Assembly (NCBI GenBank): GCA_963788015.1
Contig: CAWBEY010000001.1
Location: forward strand, 128,359 to 192,358
Origin: an uncultured Phycisphaerales bacterium
GTDB lineage: Bacteria > Planctomycetota > Phycisphaerae > Tepidisphaerales > Tepidisphaeraceae
Reading direction: 5' to 3'
DNA: 64,000 bases
Numbering within the stretch: the first letter of the stretch is position 1; each line of letters starts with the position of its first letter. Both the position numbers and the translations under genes were made by a program. The notes beneath the pieces were generated by a model that had not been told where the DNA came from, did not search any database, and saw only the letters and a program-made list of their open reading frames with translations. This document shows positions 7,497-23,571 of this stretch, piece after piece.

Positions 7497-10129
7497 CTAC
7501 GCATTCCCCACCAACTCCCCCTCCACCACCTCCGCGCCTTTGGAGAAGATGAAGTCGTGCCGGTGCGGTTCCACGTCGATCCGAATCGTATCCCCTTCAG
7601 CATATTCACCCTTCAGGATCCGTGAGGCCACCGGGTTCTCAATCCGCTGCTGGATCACCCGTTTCAGCGGCCGAGCGCCATACGTCGGATCATACCCTTC
7701 CTCCGACAACAGCTTCTTCGCCTCCTCGCTCACGCTCATCTTCAGGTTCCGGCTCGCCAGACGCTTCGACAAATGCTGAAGCTGCACATCCACAATCCGC
7801 GTGGTCTGCTCGCGCGTCAGCGGATGAAACACGATGATCTCATCGATCCGATTCAAAAATTCCGGCCGGAAATACTGCTTCAGCATCTCCTTCACCGCCG
7901 CCTCCACTTCCCATTCCTGCGCCTCCTGACCATTCAGCTTCTGAATCTCCGACGATCCAATGTTGCTGGTCATCACGATCACGCTGTTCTTAAAATCCAC
8001 CGTCCGCCCCTGCCCATCCGTCAGCCGCCCATCGTCCAGCACCTGCAGCAACACGTTAAAAACATCCCGATGCGCCTTCTCCACTTCATCAAACAAAATC
8101 ACCGAATACGGCTTCCGTCGCACCGCCTCCGTCAGCCGCCCGCCTTCTTCATACCCCACATACCCCGGCGGCGCCCCGATCAGCCGCGCCACCGAATGCT
8201 GCTCCATAAACTCGCTCATGTCGATCCGCACCATCGCGTTCTCATCATCAAACAAAAACTCCGCCAGCGCCTTGCACAGCTCCGTCTTCCCCACGCCCGT
8301 CGGCCCAAGAAACATAAACGACCCAATCGGCCGGTTCGGATCTCCCAGCCCCGCCCGGTTCCGCCGCACCGCATCCGACACCGCCCGCACCGCCTCGTCC
8401 TGCCCGATCACCCGATGCCCCAATCGCTCTTCCATCTTCATCAGCTTCTCGCGCTCCCCCTCCAGCATCCGGCTCACCGGAATCGCCCGTCCATCGCGAC
8501 ACCACCTCTGCAATTTCATCCGGCGTCACTTCCTCCTTCACCAGCGCCTCCCCATCGTTGGCCAGTTCGTGCAGCTTTTCGTTGGCCTCCTCCAGCCGCC
8601 GATTCAGCTCGCGCATCTCACCATATTGAATCCGCGCCGCCACTTCCCAATTCCCATTGCCGCTGCGCCTGCTCCAGTTCCACCTGCTTGGCATCAATCT
8701 GCTCCTGAAGCTGCTTCATCGCCCGCATCGCCCCCACCTCATTCTCCCACCGCGCTGTCAGTTGCGTGTTCTTCTCCTGAAGCTCCGCCAACTCCCGCTC
8801 GGCCTTCGCAAGCTGCTGCTTCGACGCCGGGTCCTTCTCCAGCCGCAGCGCCTCGGTCTCAATTTGAAGCTGCATCATCCGCCGCCGAATCTCATCCAGC
8901 TCGGCCGGCATCGAATCATTCTCAATCCGCAGCCGCGACGCCGCCTCATCAATCAAATCAATCGCCTTGTCCGGCAGGAATCGATCCTGAATATACCGGC
9001 TCGACAACACCGCCGCCGCCACGATCGCGCTGTCGGTAATGCGCACCCCATGGTGCGTCTCATACCGCTGCTTCAGCCCGCGCAAAATCGCAATCGTGTC
9101 TTCCACGCTCGGCTCCCCCACCACAATCGGCTGAAACCGCCGCTCCAGCGCCGCATCCTTCTCGATGTACTTCCGATATTCATCCAGCGTCGTAGCGCCG
9201 ATGGTCCGAAGTTCCCCACGCGCCAGCGCCGGCTTCAGCAGATTCCCGGCATCCATCGACCCCTCCGCCTTCCCGGCCCCAACCACCGTGTGCAACTCAT
9301 CAATAAACAGAATCACCCGCCCCTCGCTCTGCGTCACTTCCTTAATCACCGCCTTCAGCCGGTCCTCAAATTCCCCGCGAAACTTGGCCCCCGCCACCAG
9401 CGCCCCCATGTCCAGCGCGATAATCCGCTTGTTCTGCAAGCCCCGCCGGCACGTCGCCATTCACCATCCGAATCGCCAGCCCCTCCACGATCGCCGTCTT
9501 CCCCACGCCCGGCTCGCCGATCAGCACCGGATTGTTCTTGGTCCGCCGCGACAACACCTGCATCGTCCGCCGAATCTCCTCATCCCGCCCAATCACCGGA
9601 TCGAGCTTCCCCAGCCGCGCCATCTCCACCAGATCCCGGCCATACCGCATCCAGCGCCTGATACTTCTCCTCCGGGTTCTGGTCCGTCACCCGCTGCCCG
9701 CCCCGCACATCCTTCAACGCGTTCAGAATCGCATCATGCGTCACCGCGTTCAACGACAAAAGCTCCTTGCGCCTCGCTCTTCACCTGCGCCAGCGCCAGC
9801 AAAAGATGCTCCGTCGAAATGTATTCATCCTTCAGCCGGTCCGCTTCCTTCTGCGCATCACTCAAAACATCCTGCGTCGATCGCCCCATCCCAAGCTGCG
9901 TCCCCGTCGCCTTGGGCAACCGGTCCATCTCCCCGTTCACCATCTGCCCAATCCGCCCCGCATTCGCCCCCAGCTTCTGCAGAATCGGCGCAACCACCCC
10001 TTCGGTTTCGCCTAGCAGCGCCGCCAGCAGATGCAGCGGCCGCAACTCCGCATGGTCATGCTTCTGCGCCAACTCCTGAGCCCGCTGAATCGCCTCCTGA
10101 GCCTTCACTGTTAATTTATCGAGTCTCAT
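7497..10129 (-). CDS. clpB: ATP-dependent chaperone ClpB, broken by at least four frameshifts
   Basis: N-terminus [38 protein letters not shown]1 [13 protein letters not shown]...[17 protein letters not shown], ...[24 protein letters not shown]2 ...VIGQDEAV...[12 protein letters not shown]. It is spread over ORFs 9734-10219, 9366-9650, 8618-9460 and 7497-8519. Confidence 0.9.
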
Positions 10130-10412
10130 AGTCGTCTTACCTTCTGCACTTAAAAGAATCGTTGTGTAATCTACCTCATCTATACGCAACAAACGCGCCG
10201 AAGATCGCGCCCAGGGCAAGCTGCGAAGCTCGCAACACCAGTGCAGCGCAGCAGTTAAAACTATATTGACGCCAGAGCGACATCCTCACCGCCTTCCCCC
10301 CGCGCCTGCAGGATTGGCAGCCACCGCACGCCCTTCGCCAAATGTTCACCACCATCGCGTAGCATCGGCCCCTCTTCCCCCCCCCCGCCCATCCTCGCTA
10401 ACCTTGCACCCC

Positions 10413-11820
10413 ATGAGCGACGCCGCATATCAGCAATGCATCCACCCCGATTGCGGCGCCACCTACAGCGTCGACGAAGTCCGCACCGCCTGCGAAAAAT
10501 GCGGCTCCCTCATCGACATCCGCTACGACTGGTCACGCCTCCCCGTCCCCAAAAGCCTCAGCTTTTTCGAGCACCGCTGGAACACCAAGGGCACCGAAAC
10601 CGCCGGCCGCCTCGACTTCTCCGGCGTCTGGCGCTTCCGCGAACTCCTCCCCTTCTACCACACCGAAGACGACATGGTCTCCATCGGCGAAGGCCGAACA
10701 AGCATGCAACAGGCCGACCTCCTCGGCCGGCAGATCGGCATGCGGCCCGGCAAGCTGATGCTTCAGTACGAAGGCCTCAACCCCAGCGGCAGCTTCAAGG
10801 ACAACGGCATGACCGCCGCCTTCACCCATGCCCGCATGGTCAAGGCCAAACGCGTCGCCTGCGCCTCCACCGGCAACACCAGCGCCAGCCTCGCCATGTT
10901 CGCCTCCCTCGCCGAAATGCAGGGCATCGTCTTCATCGGCACCGGCAAAATCTCCCTCGGCAAACTCTCCCAGGCCCTCGACTACGGCGCACTCACGCTC
11001 CAGATCAAAGGCGACTTCGACGCCTGCCTCCGCCGCATCCGCCAAATCTCGGCCGACACCGACCTGGGCATCTACCTCATGAACAGCGTCAACCCCTTCC
11101 GCCTCGAAGGCCAGAAAAGCATCATGTATCGCATCCTCGAGGCCCTCGACTGGCAAAGTCCCCGACTGGGTCATCGTCCCCGGCGGCAACCTCGGCAACT
11201 GCTCCGCATTCGGCAAGGCCTTCATGGAGCTCAAGGAACTGGGCCTCATCCGCAAAATCCCCCGCCTCGCCGTCATCAACGCCTCCGGCGCCAACACCCT
11301 CAACGAGCTCTACTCCCGCCAGAATCTCCGCTGGAACGACGGCCGCGTCGATATGAAAGCCATCACCGGCCTCTACGCCGCCATGGACGAAAGCAACTAC
11401 TACCCCCACACCGTCGCCAGCGCCATCGAGATCTCCCGCCCCGTCAACCTCCCCAAGGCCCTCCGCGCCCTGCATTTCATGAGCGGCGTCGTCCGCGAAG
11501 TCACCGACGAAGAAATCCTCGAACACCGGGCCATGGTCGCCCGCTTCGGCTTCGGCTGCGAGCCCGCCAGCGCCGCCAGCGTCGCCGGCCTGCGCAACTT
11601 CTCGAAGAACAAGTCATCTCCCCGCGACGAAACCGTCGCCTGCATCCTCACCGGCCACGAGCTCAAAGACCCCAACGTCACGGTAAAATACCACACCGGC
11701 GTAGACATAAAAGCCGTCCAGGACCAGGCCCCCCGCGTCGAACCGCATGGCCGGTATGTCAACCAGCCCATCGCCGTCGCCGACAAACTCGACGACATCA
11801 TCCGCGTCATCACCAGCTGA
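10413..11820 (+). CDS. thrC: threonine synthase, frameshift near 11154
   Basis: Zn-ribbon N-terminus [35 protein letters not shown] lysine motif [10 protein letters not shown]. After 'EALDW' the frame shifts into ...[23 protein letters not shown].... Confidence 0.85.
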
Positions 11821-12191
11821 CCACGTGACGCATTGCCACCGCCGCAACTTCCGTCACGCGGGCCTTTGCTCGCGCATTCCCCAATGATCAATTGTCCAAC
11901 AGCTTGTTGAACAATCTCCTTGGGGCGAGCATTTCGTAGATGGCATGTTGGTTGTCGGGTTAGTCGGTTAAGGTATACTCGCCGTGCCTTCGGTTTGGCG
12001 CAAGGGCTTTGGAGACTACAATCCCGAAGCTCTAGATAGTTCCTTTTTTAGTCGAGAGTGCTGCCGTTGGCAGACGTCGCTGACAACCAGCGAAAAAGGT
12101 TTACCCCTAATGGCCTTCCATTTTCCGCGATTGGTGGAGCTATCTAGAATAAAATCCCCCGTTCACCTGCCAGCGACAGGACGAGTTCCAA

Positions 12192-13405
12192 ATGGAAAAT
12201 AAAGTGTTCGCAGAATCCGATAGCGGAATTGAGATTCCTTTGGAGGAAATCACTTCCGGAGGAACCGGCAGCGGCCTTGAAGCTGAACGGTCTACTGAAG
12301 ATGGCAACATATTGGCACCATTCGACCCCGCCAAAATTGATGTCATTACGCAAGCGCGTACCGTGGATCTATTACTACGCGCCTAAAGGAAGGCGAACTT
12401 GATCTGTCACCGGATTTCCAACGCCGGAGCAACCTCTGGGGTGATTCTACAAAAAGTGCCCTTATCGAATCGATACTTCTTCGAATCCCGATCCCATCCC
12501 TATATGTTGCCGAGGACGAAGGCGGCGATTACACAGTGGTCGATGGGCTCCAGAGACTCTGCGCAATTGCTCATTTCGTAAATGTCGAAGCACTCAATAA
12601 GGCGGTTAAACGGGAGCTAAACCCACTGCGACTCAGAGAGCTCCAGTCATTTTTTGAATTCAATGGAAAGGCGTTCGGCGAACTTCCGCGACCTCTGCAA
12701 CGCCGAATTAATGAGACAGAACTCACATTGCATATCATTAGAGCCGGAACTCCGCCGGCGGTAAAATTCAACATATTTTCCCGAATCAACCGTGGCGGCC
12801 TCCCACTTACTGCCCAAGAAATTCGCAACGCGATCTATGTGGGCGATTGGAAAAACCATGTTCGTTCGCTCGCAGAAAGTTCAGAATTCAAAACCGCGAC
12901 GCAAGGAAAAATTAAGGGCGAACGGATGGAAGATTTGGAACTCATTCTACGGTTTGTGGCTAGCTACGCACAATCCGATGGCAAGACACGACCTCCGGAT
13001 CAAAACCTCGATGATTTCTTAAACGATTTTGTCGAAAAAGAGTGCACCGGGTGGTCCGTTGAACGATGGCGATCTGTGATCTCCGCATTTAAGAGGGCGA
13101 TGGAATTCGCACCGAAGGTATTTGGAGCAATGGCATTCAGAAAGTATTCTGCCCCAGGTGAATACCGGCGACCGATCAACCGAGGATTGTTTGAAACGGA
13201 ATCCGTGACACTGGCAAGACGCACACCCGAGGAACTTGTTAAACTGTCAGGCCGTTCGCAGCGTGTGATCGAGGCGTTTGGACGCGAATTTAAGAGCGAC
13301 AAGAACTTCCAAGATGCTCTTCTCTATGCCACAGGGAAGGGAGCGGCAAGTAACAAGCGGCTCGATGTAATGGAACAAATTTTTGCACAGGTGCTGAATG
13401 ATTGA
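12192..13405 (+). CDS. DUF262 (ParB/Srx-like NTPase-nuclease superfamily) protein; a single missing base near 12378 splits it into two ORFs
   Basis: After frame correction it reads ...FDPAKIDVITQARTVDLLLRRLKEGELDLSPDFQRRSNLWGDSTKSALIESILLRIPIPSLYVAEDEGGDYTVVDGLQRLCAI..., which carries the DUF262 'FQR...W' and 'DGxQRL' motifs. It sits in a low-GC island. Confidence 0.7.
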
Positions 13406-14542
13406 GCACATTCATCTCCAGAACTTCAAGGCGAGCCGCGACGTGGCCATAAGGATCGCCCCATTAACCGTCTTAGCGGGTTTGAATAGTTCTGGTAAGA
13501 GTTCCATTCTTCAGGCGATTGCCCTTCTTAGACAAAGCTATGGAATAGCTGCTCACGCAAACAGCCTACTTCTCGGTGGCGATCTTATCCAATTGGGCCA
13601 TGGCCGAGATGTGCTCAGCGAAGGCGCAGATGTTGCAGATGATGTGATTATCTTCACCATGCGCGACGGCGGGACCGAGTATCGTTGGAGTTGCCCAACT
13701 GCGGCAGACGCTACCGAATTGGAATTCCGCGATAAGCCTGATCAGCTGCCCGCCTTCATCCGCTCGTCGAATTTTCAATTCCTTCAAGCGGGCCCGCGTA
13801 ACCCCCTCGCCTCTCTATCCGCAAGCACCACAGCATGCTCGTGCGAGTGGATTTCTAGGACCCCGCGGCGAATATACGGCGGATTATTTGGCGATGAATG
13901 CGGACAAACTTGCCTTCGAAACAAGATTTGCCGCATGTGCGGGCTCATTGACTCCTGTTGATCCGGAACTACTCAGCATGGTTTCCCCGACCAAAAAGCT
14001 TATTGACCAGGTTGCCGGATGGTTGCAATACTTGAGTCCCGGTGCACGGCTCAGAGCGGAAAGAGTAACAGGAACAGACAATGTCATGTTGCAGTACAAC
14101 TTTGTTGGACGCGCACGCGAACTTGCTACCAACCAATACAGACCTACTAATGTCGGATTCGGCTTGACATATAGCCTTCCCATTGTAGTTGCTTGTCTGG
14201 CGGCCACCGAAGGATCATTGTTAATGCTTGAAAATCCGGAGGCGCATCTTCACCCCCAGGGACAGGTCGCATTAGGTGAATTATTGGCCTTAGCCAGCGC
14301 AGATGCGAGTCCAAATCATCGTGGAGACTCATAGTGACCACCTTCTTAACGGTCTTCGGTTGTCGGTAAAGAGCGGGCGGTTGAATCCTGCGGAGGTTGC
14401 TCTGCATTTCTTTGGTCGTCCGACTGAAACTGGCGAGTCGTCGGTGCAATCACCATCGATGCTCCCCGGCGGGCGCCTTTCAAATTGGCCGGAAGGATTT
14501 TTTGACCAGTGGGACAACAGCTTAGATGCACTAATTGATTAG
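13398..14542 (+). CDS. ABC/SMC-like AAA ATPase with a DUF3696-like C-terminus, two frameshifts. Overlaps the upstream gene by ATGATTGA (translational coupling).
   Basis: Walker A MIEHIHLQNFKASRDVAIRIAPLTVLAGLNSSGKSSILQAI. Walker B/D-loop LLMLENPEAHLHPQGQ. H-loop IIVETHSDHLLNGLRL. Tail ...WPEGFFDQWDNSLDALID. Confidence 0.7.
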
Positions 14543-14876
14543 GAAGCTATGCGCTCGCCTGTCATCTACATTAATGAATTGTCGTTTGCATTCGACGGTT
14601 TTCCAGCTCGAGGAGATCCGGCCTCATGTTGAGAGCGCTTTTGCTGCCATTCACGCTGCCGTTCGCATCCGCCCAAAGACAATATTGAAACTCTCACAAC
14701 CTCTTGGAAGCCTTGCGCTCGGCAATGGACAGTTCACGCTTGCTATGATATTTCCAGGCAAGAACAACGAGTTAAGCAGTTTAAAGCGCCAGTTCTGGAC
14801 CGTGCGCCATGCAATTCATTGGCAGGAGCACTCGACTCAGAAATCCGTTATGACAATCAAATTCCCATTGGGATGA
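14535..14876 (+). CDS. hypothetical protein (TTG start overlapping the ATPase stop); no recognisable domain
   Basis: 113-aa ORF in the low-GC island. Its start TTGATTAG overlaps the upstream stop. Confidence 0.2.
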   Translation: MIRKLCARLSSTLMNCRLHSTVFQLEEIRPHVESAFAAIHAAVRIRPKTILKLSQPLGSLALGNGQFTLAMIFPGKNNELSSLKRQFWTVRHAIHWQEHSTQKSVMTIKFPLG

Positions 14877-15354
14877 GCTGGGCTGACCATGATGCCTCGT
14901 TTGTGCTCAGTTTCGGCTATTCCGTACCATGGTCAGCTACCGCGATCCAAGCACAACGTCATCAACTTGATCAGCAATGCAATCTCGTCGTTCAAAACGT
15001 AGACGTTAATAATATCGCCGTTCCGGGTCACGCAGAGCACTGGCGTTGGCGATTGGAAGAATATGGCAAGGAACCGGCGAGTTCCTCGCTATTATATCGA
15101 GGAAACCAGTTCGTGATCAGAATGCATCTGAATGACCACGATCCACCACATCTGCATATATACCCGCATTCTAACGACACTAACGAGTGCCTCGCCAAGA
15201 TTCGCATTGACAACGGCGATCTTCTCGAAGGCAAGCTGTCTTCCGCTATGGCAGAGAGATTTCCGAATTGATCGCCTCGAATAGACAAGTACTATCAGAA
15301 GGCTGGGACCGATGTAAGCACGGTCAGCTCCCATACGCAATTGAGGAACAATAG
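14819..15354 (+). CDS. ORF with a C-terminal DUF4160-like domain (start uncertain; frameshift near 15268)
   Basis: ...LLYRGNQFVIRMHLNDHDPPHLHIYPHSNDTNECLAKIRIDNGDLLEGKL matches the DUF4160 core ('NDHxPPHxH'). The C-terminal continuation LIASNRQVLSEGWDRCKHGQL lies in the +2 frame. Confidence 0.35.
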
Positions 15355-15446
15355 GAAGTATCCCGAGATGCTACACTTTCACCACTTGTCATCATCCGAC
15401 TACGCGGGTACGAAAGCGATTGTCGCTCACTGTGCCAGCATGTCCA

Positions 15447-15692
15447 TCATCGATGCCGGTTCACCCTAACCCCCTCCCGATGCGTCCCAAAATCAAACGC
15501 CATATCCCCAAAATCCAGCGGCGCATCCGCCCGATGATGGTTCGTGCATAAAAGCGCCAAATTCCCCAGCGCATCCTCCCCGCCCCGGCTCAGCCAAACA
15601 ATATGATGCGCCTCGCAAATCGAATCCGCATAGACCGCCCGCGGATCCCACAGACAAAGCTGGCACTTCCAATCCCGCGTCAGGAAGCGCAA
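15447..15692 (-). CDS. small HNH endonuclease (TTG start)
   Basis: CQLC...EAHHIVWLSRGGEDALGNLALLCTNHHR is a complete C-x2-C / HH / N / C-x2-HH HNH motif set within about 81 aa. Confidence 0.5.
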   Translation of the reverse strand: MRFLTRDWKCQLCLWDPRAVYADSICEAHHIVWLSRGGEDALGNLALLCTNHHRADAPLDFGDMAFDFGTHREGVRVNRHR

Positions 15693-16001
15693 GGAAACGC
15701 AGCAGCGTTGTCACGTACTCGCGACCGCAGCGCAGCGAAGTCCTGTAGCACTCCGGCCCCGCGCAGCGGGGCGACGCCCAAACCTAAACGATCGAGAAAG
15801 GAAGCCCGCCCCGCAACCGCGGCCTAGTCATGGAATCGCGAACACTCCTTCAAATCCCGTCAATGTAATCGACCAAGAAGCCATGCGCCTGCGCTTTCGC
15901 CAGGATGTCATGAGAAAGGCAATCCCATTGTGAGGCCCCACAATCTACCCCTCCACGAAGCTCTCGATTCCGCGTCTTACCTGTCCAGGACAAGACATCG
16001 T

Positions 16002-16793
16002 CTATCCGCGGGTGAGGGGGCGCCGCCGCCGCAGGGTGATCAGGGCGCCGACGGCCATTAAACCCATGCTTGCGGGTTCGGGGACGGGAGAGACGGAAAT
16101 GGAGTTGGTGCTGGTGAGGTTGAAGTTGTCGAACTCGGCGCCCCACGTTCCGCCGCTGGGACCGTTCAGATAGGTAAAGAGGCCAAAGCGAGTCGGGGTG
16201 GCGCCAGAGAAGTCGGGGATAGCTGGGCCGGTGTCGTTGACGATAGGAACGAAATTGCCCGAATTGAAGGTCCCGTTGAGCGTCTTGGTTTGCCAGACGT
16301 TGGTGCCGACGACGCTATCGGCGCTGGAGTGGTAGTAATGGCCATTCTGCTCCATGAGCAATGCGACGCCATCAATTTCGTCGCCGGGATCGGTGGCGGG
16401 ATCAGCGTGGTAATCAAAGGTCAAAGTGAAGTTGCCGCTGAGGGGGTCGGTGGTGGCGAAAAATGGATCGAAATTGGCGGCCTCTACTTCACCGCCGTCG
16501 TGCCGGAAATGAAGGTCGGAGGCCATGGCGCCCGGATTGCCGCCGGAGACGATTGGAGTGAACTGATGGGTGGAGGTGGCACCAGGCGCCTGCTGGGTGA
16601 CGGAAGTCCAGGTGCTGAAGTTGCCTTCAGATAGGATCGTGCCCGCGCTGGCAGTCTGGAAGGCGGTGATTGCGTCAGCGCACCACCAACAAGGCACAGG
16701 CGGTGCCTGAATTTCGGTCCGGACATAGTTTTCTCCTCCAGCGATTTCGAAGAACCTCTCGCAGGACTTTTGCGGCCTGGCGAGCACATCCAT
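16002..16793 (-). CDS. PEP-CTERM sorting-domain protein (N-terminus and start uncertain)
   Basis: C-terminus ...SVSPVPEPASMGLMAVGALITLRRRRPLTRG is a PEP motif, then a TM helix, then an Arg cluster. Confidence 0.6.
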   Translation of the reverse strand: MDVLARPQKSCERFFEIAGGENYVRTEIQAPPVPCWWCADAITAFQTASAGTILSEGNFSTWTSVTQQAPGATSTHQFTPIVSGGNPGAMASDLHFRHDGGEVEAANFDPFFATTDPLSGNFTLTFDYHADPATDPGDEIDGVALLMEQNGHYYHSSADSVVGTNVWQTKTLNGTFNSGNFVPIVNDTGPAIPDFSGATPTRFGLFTYLNGPSGGTWGAEFDNFNLTSTNSISVSPVPEPASMGLMAVGALITLRRRRPLTRG

Positions 16794-17170
16794 TGGATCA
16801 GTTCAGCCTCTCCAAATGCGTCCCAATGACTTAAAAGGCTCGAGTGCCCCGCGCGTCGCCGAACGAACCCATCCATTCATGGAGAATAGTAGCGCCCGTC
16901 CGATAATGCAAGGGAATCACAAGAAATTTCAGCAATATTCTTGGACGCGCCAGATGTGGTCTAAAAGCAAGCAGGATCGGCGTTGACTTACAAAGTGTTC
17001 CAATCCAGCCGCGCGTCAACTTCTCAACGTTTCAACCGCCAACCGCCAAGCAGAGCCAGCAAAGCCACTTCTCCCCCTAAACCAAAATGAAAGTAAACTT
17101 TCTAATTGACTCGCCCTTCCACTCCTGATAGGCTAATGTTAGCTTCCGTTACAGAAGCTCCGGCCAGCCA

Positions 17171-17200
17171 AAAAGGAGGGAACAAACCCCCTCCCCAAAG
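17171..17200 (-). terminator. Rho-independent terminator on the minus strand
   Basis: On the minus strand, GGAGGG-GTTTGTT-CCCTCC followed by TTTTT. Confidence 0.4.
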
Positions 17201-17240
17201 CCTGCCGCAGTGTTCTTTCACAAGTGGATAGCCCTAGCAG

Positions 17241-17345
17241 ATTCGAAAATCGAACCTTCAAAAGCGGTAGCTTTCCGCAGTAATCGAACCTTCAAAAGCG
17301 GTAGCTTTCCGCAGATTCGAAATCGAATCTTCAAAAGCTCCAACC
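17241..17345. repeat. tandem direct repeat, about 2.7 copies of a 32-34 bp unit (atcgaaccttcaaaagcggtagctttccgcag)
   Basis: Bases 17249-17280 and 17283-17314 are identical. A third, degenerate copy follows. Each unit contains the small hairpin AAAGC-ggta-GCTTT. Confidence 0.7.
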
Positions 17346-17886
17346 CCGGATGCACATCCGGGGCTCACTCCAACTCCCCCGTTTCGTCATTCCCTCATTT
17401 TCATTGCGAGTGGCACGGGCGCCCCGCGCCCCGCCCGTTTCCGCAAGCACCATAACAAAACAAACCCAAACCCCCCATCACCGACCGCCCAGTCTCCTCC
17501 CCGACTCCACAACAAATCCTCTCTTCCTCCGTGCCTCGGTGACTCCGTGGTGAAAGAATTCGACCCTGTCGAAGCGGGGAGATTCCGGGGAGAAAGGGGG
17601 GAGATTTCACGTCGAAAAGAGGGAGCAACGGGGGAGAAAAGAGGGAGATTCCGGGGGCGGTTTGGGGGCGGTTCTTTCCAGCGTTTTTGCCCTAACCCCT
17701 TGTCAATCCTCAATCCCCTTCCCCCAACTCAAATTGAGCCTTCAAAAAAACAACGCAAATGACACGAACCGGGACATTGGCAATGGCTCACGAGCCAACA
17801 TCCTTCACCATCCCTCCCTCCTCACCGCCCCCCGGCCAGGCACGCAAAGACCCCCAATCCCGCGTCTGTCAATGCTTTCTCCTCTT

Positions 17887-19351
17887 CTTACTTTCCCCCG
17901 CCCGGGCGGTGGTGGTGCCAGGTGGTGTTGGATTGGTAGAGGTTGGCGATTTGGAGCAGGTGGGCGTCGGTGAAGGGGGGCCGAGGAGTTGGAGGCCGAT
18001 GGGGAGGTTGGGCCGGTGGAGAAGCCGCAGGGGAGGCTGAGGCCGGGGATGCCGGCGATGTTGCAGGTGACGGTGAAGACGTCGCAGAGGTACATCTGCG
18101 AGGGGGTCGTCGGTTTTTTCGCCGAACTTGAAGGCGGGGGTGGGGCTGGTGGGGCAGAGCGATGGCGTCGCAGTGATTGGAAGGCGTTGTCGAAGTCCTG
18201 TTTGATCAGGGCGCGGAGCTTTTGGGCCTGGAGGTAGAAGTTGTCGTCGTAGCCGGCGGAGAGGGCGTAGGTGCCGATCATGATGCGGCGTTTGACTTCG
18301 GCGCCGAAGCCTTCGGCGCGGGAGGTGGCGTAGAGGTCGATGATGTCGCTGGCCGGGACTTGGTGCGGTGGCCGAAGTGGACGCCGTCGTAGCGGGCGAG
18401 GTTGGAGGAGGCTTCGCAGGGGGCGATGACGTAATAGGCGGCGATGCCGTACTGGGTGTTGGGGAGGGAGACGTCGACGAGCTCGGCGCCCAGCTCCTGG
18501 TATTTGTGCGATGGCGGCGTGGACGGCGGCTTTGACTTCGGGCGTCGATGCCCTGGCGTGAGTGTATTCTTCGGACGATGCCGATGCGCAGGCCTTTGAG
18601 GGGCTGTCGAGGTCGGCGAGGTAGTCGGGGACGTCGCGGGGGACGCTGGTGGAATCTTTGGGGTCGTGGCCGGCGATGACGTTGAGCAGGAGGGCGGCGT
18701 CTTCGACGGTCAGGCCGAAGGGGCCGATCTGGTCGAGGGAGGAGGCGAAGGCGACGAGGCCGTAGCGGGAGACGCGGCCGTAGGTGGGTTTGAGGCCGAC
18801 GATGCCGCAGAGGGAGGCGGGCTGGCGGATGGAGCCGCCGGTGTCGGAGCCGAGGCCGCCGAAGCACCAGGCGGGCGGCCAGAGCGGCGGCGCTGCCGCC
18901 GGAGGAACCGCCGGGGACGCGGGTGGTGTCCCAGGGATTTGTGGTGGGGCCGAAGGCGGAGTTTTCGGTGGAGGAGCCCATGGCGAATTCGTCGAGGTTG
19001 GTCTTGCCGAGGATGACGGCGCCGGCGGCTTCGAGCTTTTGGACGACGGTGGCGTCGTAGGGGGCGTGGAAGTTTTCGAGCATTTTGCGAGGAGCAGGTG
19101 GTGGTGCCGAAGGTGGTGCAGATGTTGTCTTTGAGGGCGATGGGGACGCCGGCGAGAGGGCCGGTGCGAAGGCCGTTGTCAACGTCGCGGGCCTGTTCGA
19201 GGGCGCGGTCGGGGAAGGTGCTGTTGAAGGCGTGAATTTGGGGGTCGAGGTTCTGGATGCGGTCGAGCGATTGGCGGATGAGTTCGACGGCGCTGATTTG
19301 TCTGGAGCGAAGAGCGTCGCGCGCGGCGAGGAGGGTGTCGAAGGCAAGCAT
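17887..19351 (-). CDS. gatA: Glu-tRNA(Gln) amidotransferase subunit A, multiple frameshifts
   Basis: N-terminus [27 protein letters not shown]...[13 protein letters not shown]-terminus ...[30 protein letters not shown], ...[15 protein letters not shown], ...[23 protein letters not shown]. The last needs G7, but the run at 17974-17979 is G6. Confidence 0.85.
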
Positions 19352-23178: not shown

Positions 23179-23571
23179 CTACCAGACAATTGGAACGCCC
23201 GCACAGCGGATGATCGTTCGATCGCGCGTGATCAACCCCGCTCCTAATCGACGTGCAACCCCGGCGATGATGCGATCATGCATCTCACGCACCGCAATGT
23301 CGACGTCGAAGTCGAGCGTGTCGAACGCTTCAAAAGAAAGAAGCACATATTGGGAACCAGCATCCAATTGCCGCACAACTCCACCAAAATTAAGCAGCTG
23401 ATTGTACTTGGCGATTACATGATATAATTCGGCAATAACGATACTCGGCACATAAATCGTCGCCAAACCACCAACGCCCTCCTCGAATGCGCGCATGGCG
23501 TCGGTTCCGAGTTGGACGGATTTGGTCAGATACCAGAATAAAGCGTGGGTGTCGGCCACGTACCTAGTCAT
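23179..23571 (-). CDS. vapC: type II toxin VapC (PIN domain)
   Basis: MTRYVADTHALFWYL...ELYHV...GAGLITRD carries PIN acidic residues in the expected positions. Its start overlaps the upstream antitoxin stop by 4 nt. Confidence 0.65.
   Translation of the reverse strand: MTRYVADTHALFWYLTKSVQLGTDAMRAFEEGVGGLATIYVPSIVIAELYHVIAKYNQLLNFGGVVRQLDAGSQYVLLSFEAFDTLDFDVDIAVREMHDRIIAGVARRLGAGLITRDRTIIRCAGVPIVW

What the first reader, a model, noticed from the sequence alone, without database searches (positions are those of the whole stretch)
12192..14542. Translationally coupled DUF262 + DUF3696-like ABC ATPase pair: candidate anti-phage defence module of a type I cannot match to a named system
Two genes overlap by ATGATTGA. 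The first is a protein of about 400 aa with the DUF262 motifs 'FQR..W' and 'DGLQRL' (ParB/sulfiredoxin-fold NTPase/nuclease domain, as in GmrSD/BrxU/SspE/DndB), but it lacks the DUF1524 HNH-like partner domain. The second is an ABC/SMC-like ATPase of about 380 aa with Walker A, Walker B/D-loop and an 'ETHSDHLLNGL...WPEGFFDQ' DUF3696-like tail. ATPase plus nuclease pairs are the recurring logic of Gabija, PARIS, Septu and OLD-family systems. This specific DUF262/DUF3696 pairing is not one of the well-characterised named systems as far as I know. It sits in a horizontally acquired low-GC island.
Basis: partly seen in the sequence, partly recalled or inferred. Interest (0 to 1): 0.8.

Follow-up and report, generated by a model that had tools for sequence, protein, structure and literature searches.

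The report
Menshen (NsnABC) anti-phage operon
The flagged DUF262 and DUF3696-ATPase genes are real.

Summary
After frame correction, a 404-aa DUF262 protein (12192-13405) overlaps a 380-aa ABC ATPase with a DUF3696 tail (13398-14542) by ATGATTGA. Both lie in a block of about 50% GC within a 62% GC genome.

The claim that this pairing matches no named system is wrong. PADLOC models match both proteins over their full length: NsnA at E=4e-115 and NsnB at E=1e-105. These are the first two components of Menshen.

A third gene (14549-15354, 268 aa) follows 6 nt after the NsnB stop. Its N-terminal half matches the PADLOC NsnC model (5e-13), and a high-confidence model of it weakly resembles PIN domains. 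Its C-terminal part is a DUF4160 domain (1.5e-10), one of the 15 NsnC effector families listed by Li et al. 2025 (PMC12065111).

Intact homologous three-gene operons occur in Verrucomicrobiota, Acidobacteriota, Thiobacillus, Aromatoleum and Nitrosospira.

The six frameshifts in the operon occur at about the same density as in the neighbouring clpB, so they are most likely assembly errors rather than gene decay.

Verdict: a stand-alone Type I Menshen cassette, already known and of low interest. The mechanism of Menshen, and the chemistry of DUF4160 in particular, remains untested experimentally.

The parts
11850..15450 (.). Low-GC block (about 0.50 against about 0.62 in the flanks). It holds only the three-gene operon and its short leader and trailer.
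   Evidence: Composition profiles. No tRNA. No convincing flanking direct repeats. No integrase-like ORF among those read by eye at 9000-18000.
12192..13405 (+). nsnA: ParB-like DUF262 domain plus a C-terminal helical (ParBDB-type) region, 404 aa after frame correction. It has only a short N-terminal loop, which makes this a Type I Menshen. There is one frameshift near 12378-12383.
   Evidence: PADLOC NsnA at 4.4e-115, residues 19-403 against profile positions 14-384 of 385. Pfam GmrSD_N at 8e-23 with no DUF1524. Motifs QRRSNLW (77), DGLQR (118) and FSRIN (196) are present and invariant in the homologue alignment. 62-77% identity to intact 395-409 aa homologues.
13398..13405 (+). 8-nt overlap ATGATTGA between the nsnA stop and the nsnB start (translational coupling).
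   Evidence: Read directly from the sequence. The same ATGATTGA junction is present in the intact metagenomic operon L001.
13398..14542 (+). nsnB: ABC-type ATPase (AAA_15/AAA_21) with a C-terminal DUF3696 helix, 380 aa after frame correction. There are two frameshifts, near 13785 and near 14300.
   Evidence: PADLOC NsnB at 1e-105, residues 1-379 against profile positions 1-343 of 345. Pfam AAA_15, AAA_21 and DUF3696. Walker A GLNSSGKS (28); Walker B LLMLEN (274), with 'EN' in place of 'DE'; GFG (253) in place of SGG; ETHS (309). These are the NsnB-specific deviations described in PMC12065111.
14549..15354 (+). nsnC: predicted effector, 268 aa after frame correction. The N-terminal half is an inactive-PIN-like domain (about residues 1-170). 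The C-terminal part is a DUF4160 domain (about residues 188-253). AGGAAG lies 2 nt upstream of the ATG. There are three frameshifts, near 14603, 14790 and 15245.

Best explanation
Window 12192-15354 (+) is a complete, stand-alone Type I Menshen anti-phage operon, nsnA-nsnB-nsnC. It was acquired horizontally as a compact cassette of about 3.5 kb.

Likely mechanism. This is the published, largely bioinformatic model (Li et al. 2025), not shown here:
1. NsnA is a ParB-superfamily DUF262 NTPase with an attached helical DNA-binding domain. It senses invading, possibly modified, phage DNA.
2. NsnA signals to NsnB. NsnB is an ABC ATPase predicted to form a Gabija-GajA-like tetramer. Its paired DUF3696 tails are predicted to clamp the inactive-PIN N-domain of NsnC.
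3. ATP binding or hydrolysis by NsnB activates or releases NsnC.
4. The C-terminal toxin domain of NsnC, here DUF4160, then attacks nucleic acid (RNA is proposed). This either aborts the infection or destroys phage transcripts.

Shown here: the identity of all three proteins, the gene order and coupling, the conserved motifs, the modular two-domain build of NsnC, and conservation of the triplet in other genomes.

Inferred: every functional step, and whether this copy is intact.
For: PADLOC models of all three Menshen proteins match:
- NsnA at 4.4e-115 and NsnB at 1e-105, both over their full length.
- NsnC at 5.2e-13 over its N-domain, plus Pfam DUF4160 at 1.5e-10 over its C-domain.

Motifs fit the published description:
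- NsnA carries the DUF262 motifs.
- NsnB carries the Menshen-specific deviations: EN at Walker B, GxG for SGG, R for Q.

DUF4160 is one of the 15 published NsnC effector families.

Conservation in other genomes:
- Intact homologous operons of 405, 378 and 264 aa with the same 8-nt overlap occur in metagenomes.
- Among the 27 related genome loci, nsnB follows nsnA directly in all 24 loci with room downstream. A DUF4160-type nsnC follows in the closer relatives, and other NsnC types (YoeB, Gp49-like) follow in the distant ones.

NsnC structure:
- The model is confident (pLDDT 94.3).
- An invariant Asn9 sits at the end of the first beta-strand (E5-8), where I read the first catalytic Asp of a PIN domain to be.

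Experimental anti-phage activity of the type system (Solibacillus silvestris, against T2, T4, T6 and Fado) is reported by Millman et al. 2022, as cited in PMC12065111.
Against: - All three genes are frame-broken in the sequence as given, with six indels in 3.16 kb. The public assembly carries at least the nsnA break: a 289-aa ORF identical to the window's is on record (P0006). So the copy could be non-functional.
- The published mechanism itself is unproven. AlphaFold 3 did not predict an NsnA-NsnB contact.
- The biochemical activity of DUF4160 is unknown.
- No defence activity has been tested for this subfamily.
Confidence: 0.9

Rival explanations
1. The cassette is a decaying Menshen pseudogene array. 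The six frameshifts are real mutations and the system is dead in this organism.
For: There is one frameshift in nsnA, two in nsnB and three in nsnC. The public record carries the truncated 289-aa ORF (P0006). Defence cassettes are often lost or inactivated; in locus L014 nsnC is split by an insertion carrying what looks by eye like an IS66-family transposase.
Against: The housekeeping gene clpB next door shows five frame segments, which means at least four frameshifts in 2.57 kb, and thrC is also broken. That is about one indel per 640 bp in clpB against one per 530 bp in the operon. The indels are therefore a property of the assembly. Two other long-contig MAG loci (L029, L031) show the same fragmentation. 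Between the frameshifts there are no premature stops or large deletions, and identity to intact homologues stays at 68-75% for NsnA and NsnB.
Confidence: 0.08
2. It is a new two-gene DUF262 plus DUF3696-ATPase system distinct from any named system.
For: NCBIfam has no equivalog for either protein.
Against: Both proteins match the PADLOC NsnA and NsnB models at full length with very high scores. A third, conserved NsnC gene follows immediately in the window and in the related loci that extend far enough downstream. The architecture, including the DUF4160 effector, is already published.
Confidence: 0.01
3. It is a split GmrSD, PD-T4-2 or SspE-like modification-dependent restriction enzyme, or a DndB-like accessory of a phosphorothioation (dnd/ssp) pathway.
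For: The DUF262 domain is shared with GmrSD, SspE, DndB and PD-T4-2. The PADLOC PD-T4-2_A model matches at 1.5e-35. A small HNH gene fragment lies 100 bp downstream on the opposite strand.
Against: The NsnA model scores about 260 bits higher than PD-T4-2_A. There is no DUF1524. The HNH gene has host-like GC and no HNH-annotated gene flanks the operon in the related loci with Pfam-annotated gene calls. No dnd or ssp genes flank any of the sampled loci. The flanks are thrC and clpB here, and Type III mod/res or housekeeping genes elsewhere.
Confidence: 0.01

Closest known systems
Menshen (NsnABC), Type I, with an inPIN-DUF4160 NsnC (Millman et al. 2022; Li et al. 2025, PMC12065111)
   Same: Same three proteins in the same order. 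The domains match: DUF262 plus a ParBDB-type region; an ABC ATPase plus a DUF3696 tail; a PIN-like N-domain plus DUF4160. The NsnB motif deviations (EN, GxG, R) are the same. All three PADLOC models match.
   Different: Nothing architectural. NsnA motif I reads QRxxxxW here and throughout this subfamily, whereas the text of the paper gives QRxxxW. This copy stands alone between thrC and an HNH gene fragment, with no R-M partner, and is frame-broken in the assembly.
Mod-NsnABC-Res loci of Thiobacillus denitrificans DSM 12475 and Aromatoleum bremense
   Same: NsnA is 62-66% identical depending on the measure. NsnB has the same length class (375 aa), followed by a 268-271 aa NsnC. DUF4160 is detected in the T. 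denitrificans NsnC; no Pfam hit is on record for the Aromatoleum protein.
   Different: There the cassette is nested between a Type III methyltransferase and a Res helicase-nuclease. tblastn with the T. denitrificans Mod and Res proteins found no homologue in the window.
Gabija (GajA), Septu (PtuAB) and PARIS (AriAB)
   Same: All pair an OLD/ABC-type ATPase with a nuclease or toxin. NsnB gives weaker PADLOC matches to AriA and GajA models. The NsnB tetramer and the way it holds its effector are predicted to resemble these systems.
   Different: NsnB has no fused Toprim domain. Menshen adds a separate DUF262 sensor protein. The effector is held through the DUF3696 tail.
GmrSD, BrxU and SspE (DUF262-DUF1524 enzymes)
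   Same: An N-terminal ParB-like DUF262 NTPase domain with the DGxQR motif, followed by a helical DNA-binding domain.
   Different: There is no DUF1524/HNH nuclease domain. The effector function is delegated to a separate protein through an ATPase.

Membership tests
Menshen (NsnABC) | NsnA: ParB-DUF262 domain with motifs QRx(3-4)W, DGxQR and FxxxN, followed by a helical ParBDB region, with no DUF1524. | tested here: met
   PADLOC NsnA at 4.4e-115 over its full length. Pfam finds only GmrSD_N. Motifs at residues 77, 118 and 196 are invariant in the alignment. The ParBDB fold itself was not modelled.
Menshen (NsnABC) | NsnB: ABC ATPase (AAA_15) with a C-terminal DUF3696 helix. Walker A is GxxxxGKS, Walker B is 'EN' instead of 'DE', and GxG replaces SGG. 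| tested here: met
   PADLOC NsnB at 1e-105. Pfam AAA_15, AAA_21 and DUF3696. GLNSSGKS at 28, LLMLEN at 274, GFG at 253, ETHS at 309. Compared with the description.
Menshen (NsnABC) | NsnC lies immediately downstream and has an N-terminal inactive-PIN-like domain. | tested here: met
Menshen (NsnABC) | The NsnC C-terminus carries one of the variable toxin or effector domains. | tested here: met
   Pfam DUF4160 at 1.5e-10, above the curated cut-off. DUF4160 is listed among the 15 NsnC-C families. The domains are modular: other proteins share only the N-domain or only DUF4160.
Menshen (NsnABC) | The conserved co-directional order A-B-C behaves as one operon. | tested here: met
   8-nt A/B overlap and 6-nt B/C gap. 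The same order is found in L001, L002, L006, L038-L041 and in 24 of the 24 genome loci with room downstream.
Menshen (NsnABC) | All three reading frames are intact. | tested here: inconclusive
   There are six frameshifts in the sequence as given. clpB has at least four in 2.57 kb, which points to assembly error.
Menshen (NsnABC) | The system protects against phage infection. | not testable with these tools
   Shown only for the Solibacillus silvestris system, as cited in PMC12065111.
GmrSD / SspE type IV restriction enzymes | DUF262 fused to a DUF1524 (HNH-like) nuclease domain. | tested here: not met
   Pfam finds no DUF1524 in NsnA. The best PADLOC model is NsnA, not a type IV restriction enzyme.
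Gabija GajA / OLD-family nucleases | ABC ATPase fused to a Toprim nuclease domain. | tested here: not met
   NsnB is 380 aa and ends in DUF3696, with no Toprim match. The GajA and Old models match only the ATPase segments, at 1e-13 to 1e-16.

The most novel reading that the evidence does not exclude
The most novel reading left open concerns the effector. This widely transferred Menshen subfamily has NsnA at 62-77% identity across Verrucomicrobiota, Acidobacteriota, Planctomycetota and Proteobacteria. It uses a DUF4160 domain with a near-invariant His cluster (DHxPPHxH). That domain has no confident structural homologue and no known chemistry, so it might act by something other than RNA cleavage. 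The cassette also appears to insert next to housekeeping genes without any recognisable mobility gene. Both points are gaps in published knowledge, not discoveries made from this window.
Probability: 0.1. Interest if true: 0.4.

Novelty: already known. Interest (0 to 1): 0.12.

Why it matters
It matters little as a discovery. The locus adds one more instance, in a high-GC environmental bacterium whose taxon was not determined, of a defence system that has been named, shown experimentally to protect against phages, and surveyed across about 2,000 genomes.

There are two practical lessons:
- A DUF262 plus DUF3696-ATPase pair should be read as the first two genes of Menshen, and the third gene should be looked for.
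- The frameshifts across this window are an assembly artefact, and they cause gene callers and defence-system finders to miss the system.

Menshen remains mechanistically unsolved. A DUF4160-type representative would be a reasonable subject for biochemistry.

Tried and rejected
- A genome-contig scan with the single NsnA protein found nothing. It succeeded only with the alignment A2.
- A look-up of P0006, the window's own 289-aa ORF, gave no contig record and no name or accession.
- NCBIfam has no model for NsnA and gives only sub-threshold ATPase matches for NsnB.
- A sequence search of the PDB found no solved relative of NsnA. For NsnB it found only matches to parts of the ATPase domain: the N-terminal 44 residues of an OLD-family nuclease, and residues 274-319 against an AAA ATPase.
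- E. coli ThrC was too distant to count frameshifts in the window's thrC.
- Promoter and terminator scans gave counts no higher than shuffled sequence. Rfam gave no hit in 11000-18500. No tRNA was found in the window. No flanking direct repeats define island ends.
- tblastn with the Type III Mod and Res proteins of T. denitrificans found nothing in the window, so I rejected an R-M-nested arrangement here.
- I considered the minus-strand HNH gene (15447-15692) as a possible partner nuclease. I rejected it because its GC is host-like and no HNH-annotated gene flanks the operon in the annotated related loci.
- The supplementary tables of Li et al. 2025 are not held as text, so I could not assign an inPIN family number.

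Full report
**1. What is in the sequence**

Three-frame translation shows the breaks:
- Gene 1 starts at ATG 12192, changes frame once near 12380, and ends at TGA 13403-13405.
- Gene 2 starts at ATG 13398, changes frame near 13785 (a GGGCCC run) and near 14300, and ends at TAG 14540-14542.

The overlap is the 8-nt ATGATTGA at 13398-13405. Joining the frames gives proteins of 404 and 380 aa. tblastn with the proteins of an intact metagenomic operon (L001) maps them onto exactly these frame segments, at 74-75% (NsnA) and 68-73% (NsnB) identity. L001 carries the same ATGATTGA junction. The corrected NsnA aligns without gaps across its junction to nine intact homologues.

**2. Domain content**

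Pfam:
- Gene 1 is GmrSD_N/DUF262 (8e-23), with no DUF1524.
- Gene 2 is AAA_15 (3e-22), AAA_21 (4e-21) and DUF3696 (7e-14).

The quoted motifs are present. GC is about 0.50 from about 11850 to 15450, against about 0.62 on both sides. This 'island' is no larger than the operon. I found no tRNA, no integrase-like ORF among those I read at 9000-18000 (by eye only), and no flanking direct repeat.

**3. Identity**

The PADLOC library settles the identity:
- Gene 1 matches NsnA at 4.4e-115 (residues 19-403 against profile positions 14-384 of 385).
- Gene 2 matches NsnB at 1e-105 (residues 1-379 against profile positions 1-343 of 345).
- The next-best models are far behind: PD-T4-2_A at 1.5e-35 for gene 1 and HEC-03B at 3e-36 for gene 2.

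NsnA and NsnB are the first two proteins of Menshen. This three-gene anti-phage system was discovered by Millman et al. 2022. It was analysed in 1,997 loci by Li et al. 2025 (PMC12065111).

NsnB shows the family-specific deviations described there:
- Walker B reads LLMLEN, with 'EN' instead of 'DE'.
- GFG replaces SGG.
- An Arg (RVTP at 133) stands where I read the usual Q motif to be.
- Walker A is the standard GLNSSGKS, and the sensor His lies in ETHS.

**4. The missed third gene**

According to Li et al., a third gene 'almost always' follows NsnA and NsnB. Here an ATG at 14549, preceded by AGGAAG, opens a gene 6 nt after the nsnB stop. It runs through three frameshifts (about 14603 in a T run, about 14790, and about 15245) to TAG 15352-15354.

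The corrected 268-aa protein has four intact homologues of 259-264 aa, at 42-52% identity and 97-99% coverage. All four are annotated with PF13711. Their alignment fixed the frame junctions.

Evidence that this protein is NsnC:
- Its N-terminal half (residues 5-169) matches the PADLOC NsnC model at 5.2e-13.
- Its C-terminal part is a complete DUF4160 domain (1.5e-10, profile positions 2-64 of 65).
- DUF4160 is explicitly one of the 15 NsnC C-terminal effector families listed by Li et al..

A profile search of 1.84 billion representative proteins found 318 relatives:
- About 100 are full-length proteins of about 260-275 aa.
- Some are 300-316 aa proteins that share only the N-domain.
- Some are 63-95 aa stand-alone DUF4160 proteins.

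This is direct evidence for the modular two-domain build.

**5. Conservation elsewhere**

- Metagenomic contigs L001 and L002 carry intact 405, 378 and 264 aa genes in the same order.
- A genome scan with the NsnA alignment returned 27 loci. They come from Verrucomicrobiia, Acidobacteriota, Prosthecobacter, Thiobacillus, Lamprocystis, Phycisphaeraceae, cyanobacteria and others.
- nsnB follows nsnA directly in all 24 of these loci that have room downstream.
- A DUF4160-type nsnC follows wherever NsnA is at least 61% identical, in every locus that extends far enough downstream. It also follows in L031 (51%) and, weakly, in L028 (41%).
- In the seven distant loci I examined, a third gene of 292-332 aa follows. 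Most start with an N(E/D)xS-type motif. Four of these were scanned and all match NsnC models. Their C-termini differ: YoeB_toxin at 8e-21, and a weak Gp49-like match.

Genomic contexts vary:
- In Thiobacillus denitrificans and Aromatoleum bremense the cassette is nested between a Type III mod and res gene.
- In Nitrosospira and a Burkholderiales MAG it sits among housekeeping genes.
- In an Acidobacteriaceae MAG it lies beside a DNA methylase and toxin-antitoxin genes.

None of the sampled loci lies in a dnd or ssp locus. The window has no homologue of the Type III Mod or Res proteins of T. denitrificans. Its neighbours are clpB and thrC upstream. Downstream lie an HNH fragment, a PEP-CTERM protein and an amidase-like ORF that I did not identify.

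**6. Are the genes broken?**

There are six frameshifts in 3.16 kb, which would normally suggest a pseudogene. However, E. coli ClpB maps onto the neighbouring clpB in five frame segments. That means at least four frameshifts in 2.57 kb. thrC is also split. The density is about the same inside and outside the cassette.

Two other long-contig MAG loci (L029, L031) show the same pattern. The public record carries the window's own truncated 289-aa ORF (P0006). I conclude that the indels are most likely assembly errors. I give about 8% to real decay.

**7. How it probably works**

No mechanism was tested here, and none has been established experimentally.

The published model is as follows:
- NsnA binds phage DNA through its DUF262 and ParBDB domains. 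Its relatives GmrSD and SspE sense modified DNA, and the type Menshen system protects against T2, T4 and T6.
- NsnB forms a GajA-like tetramer. Its paired DUF3696 tails hold the PIN-like domain of NsnC.
- ATP binding or hydrolysis then activates or releases the NsnC toxin domain.

For this locus the toxin domain is DUF4160. It is known as the toxin half of a DUF4160/DUF2442 toxin-antitoxin pair, but its chemistry is unknown. Its near-invariant histidines (H197, H201 and H203, in DHDPPHLHIYP) are the obvious candidates for catalytic or metal-binding residues.

How NsnA signals to NsnB is unknown. AlphaFold 3 did not predict a contact between them.

**8. Verdict**

This is an ordinary stand-alone Type I Menshen cassette with an inPIN-DUF4160 NsnC, an architecture that is already published. 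Novelty: already known. Interest: low (0.12).

Noticed in passing
window 7560-11820: Housekeeping genes are frame-broken. clpB on the minus strand maps to E. coli ClpB in five frame segments, which means at least four indels in 2.57 kb. thrC is split into at least two ORFs. The whole window seems to carry roughly one indel per 500-650 bp, as in an unpolished long-read assembly.
   Followed up: partly
window 15447-15840 (minus strand): A small HNH endonuclease gene fragment (Pfam HNH at 6e-7) lies about 100 bp downstream of nsnC, convergent with it. It has host-like GC and is itself frame-broken. No HNH-annotated gene flanks the related Menshen loci that have gene calls.
   Followed up: partly
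window 16002-16793 (minus strand): A 263-aa secreted protein ending in a PEP-CTERM sorting motif (Pfam at 2e-5). This hints at an exopolysaccharide-producing environmental bacterium.
   Followed up: no
window 16850-17340 and 17577-17656: A second low-GC stretch (about 0.50) that seems non-coding. It holds a perfect 33-nt tandem duplication (17248-17280 and 17282-17314) and further copies of a 19-nt unit. Rfam gave no match.
   Followed up: no
window 23179-23571 (minus strand): A 130-aa ORF that looks like a PIN-domain VapC toxin by eye, in another dip in GC (0.54). It was not scanned against any library.
   Followed up: no
L006 6027-13964; L038 7111-14957: In Thiobacillus denitrificans and Aromatoleum bremense the same Menshen subfamily is inserted between the mod and res genes of a Type III restriction-modification system (Mod-NsnA-NsnB-NsnC-Res). 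In T. denitrificans an integrase lies nearby.
   Followed up: partly
L014 8289-11952: In an Acidobacteriota MAG the nsnC gene is split. Its N-terminal 129 codons are separated from the DUF4160 part by an insertion of about 2.8 kb. The insertion encodes a 541-aa protein that looks by eye like an IS66-family transposase, plus a small helper ORF. This looks like natural inactivation of the effector.
   Followed up: partly
one search hits (for example P0238, P0250, P0260; P0235, P0247): The NsnC N-domain of this subfamily also occurs in 300-316 aa proteins with unrelated C-termini. The C-domain occurs as stand-alone 63-95 aa DUF4160 proteins. This is direct evidence of effector-domain shuffling.
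   Followed up: partly
NsnA residues 77-83 (window about 12420-12440): Motif I of this subfamily is QRRxNLW, with four residues between QR and W. It is invariant in 10 sequences. The published motif is written QRxxxW.
   Followed up: no
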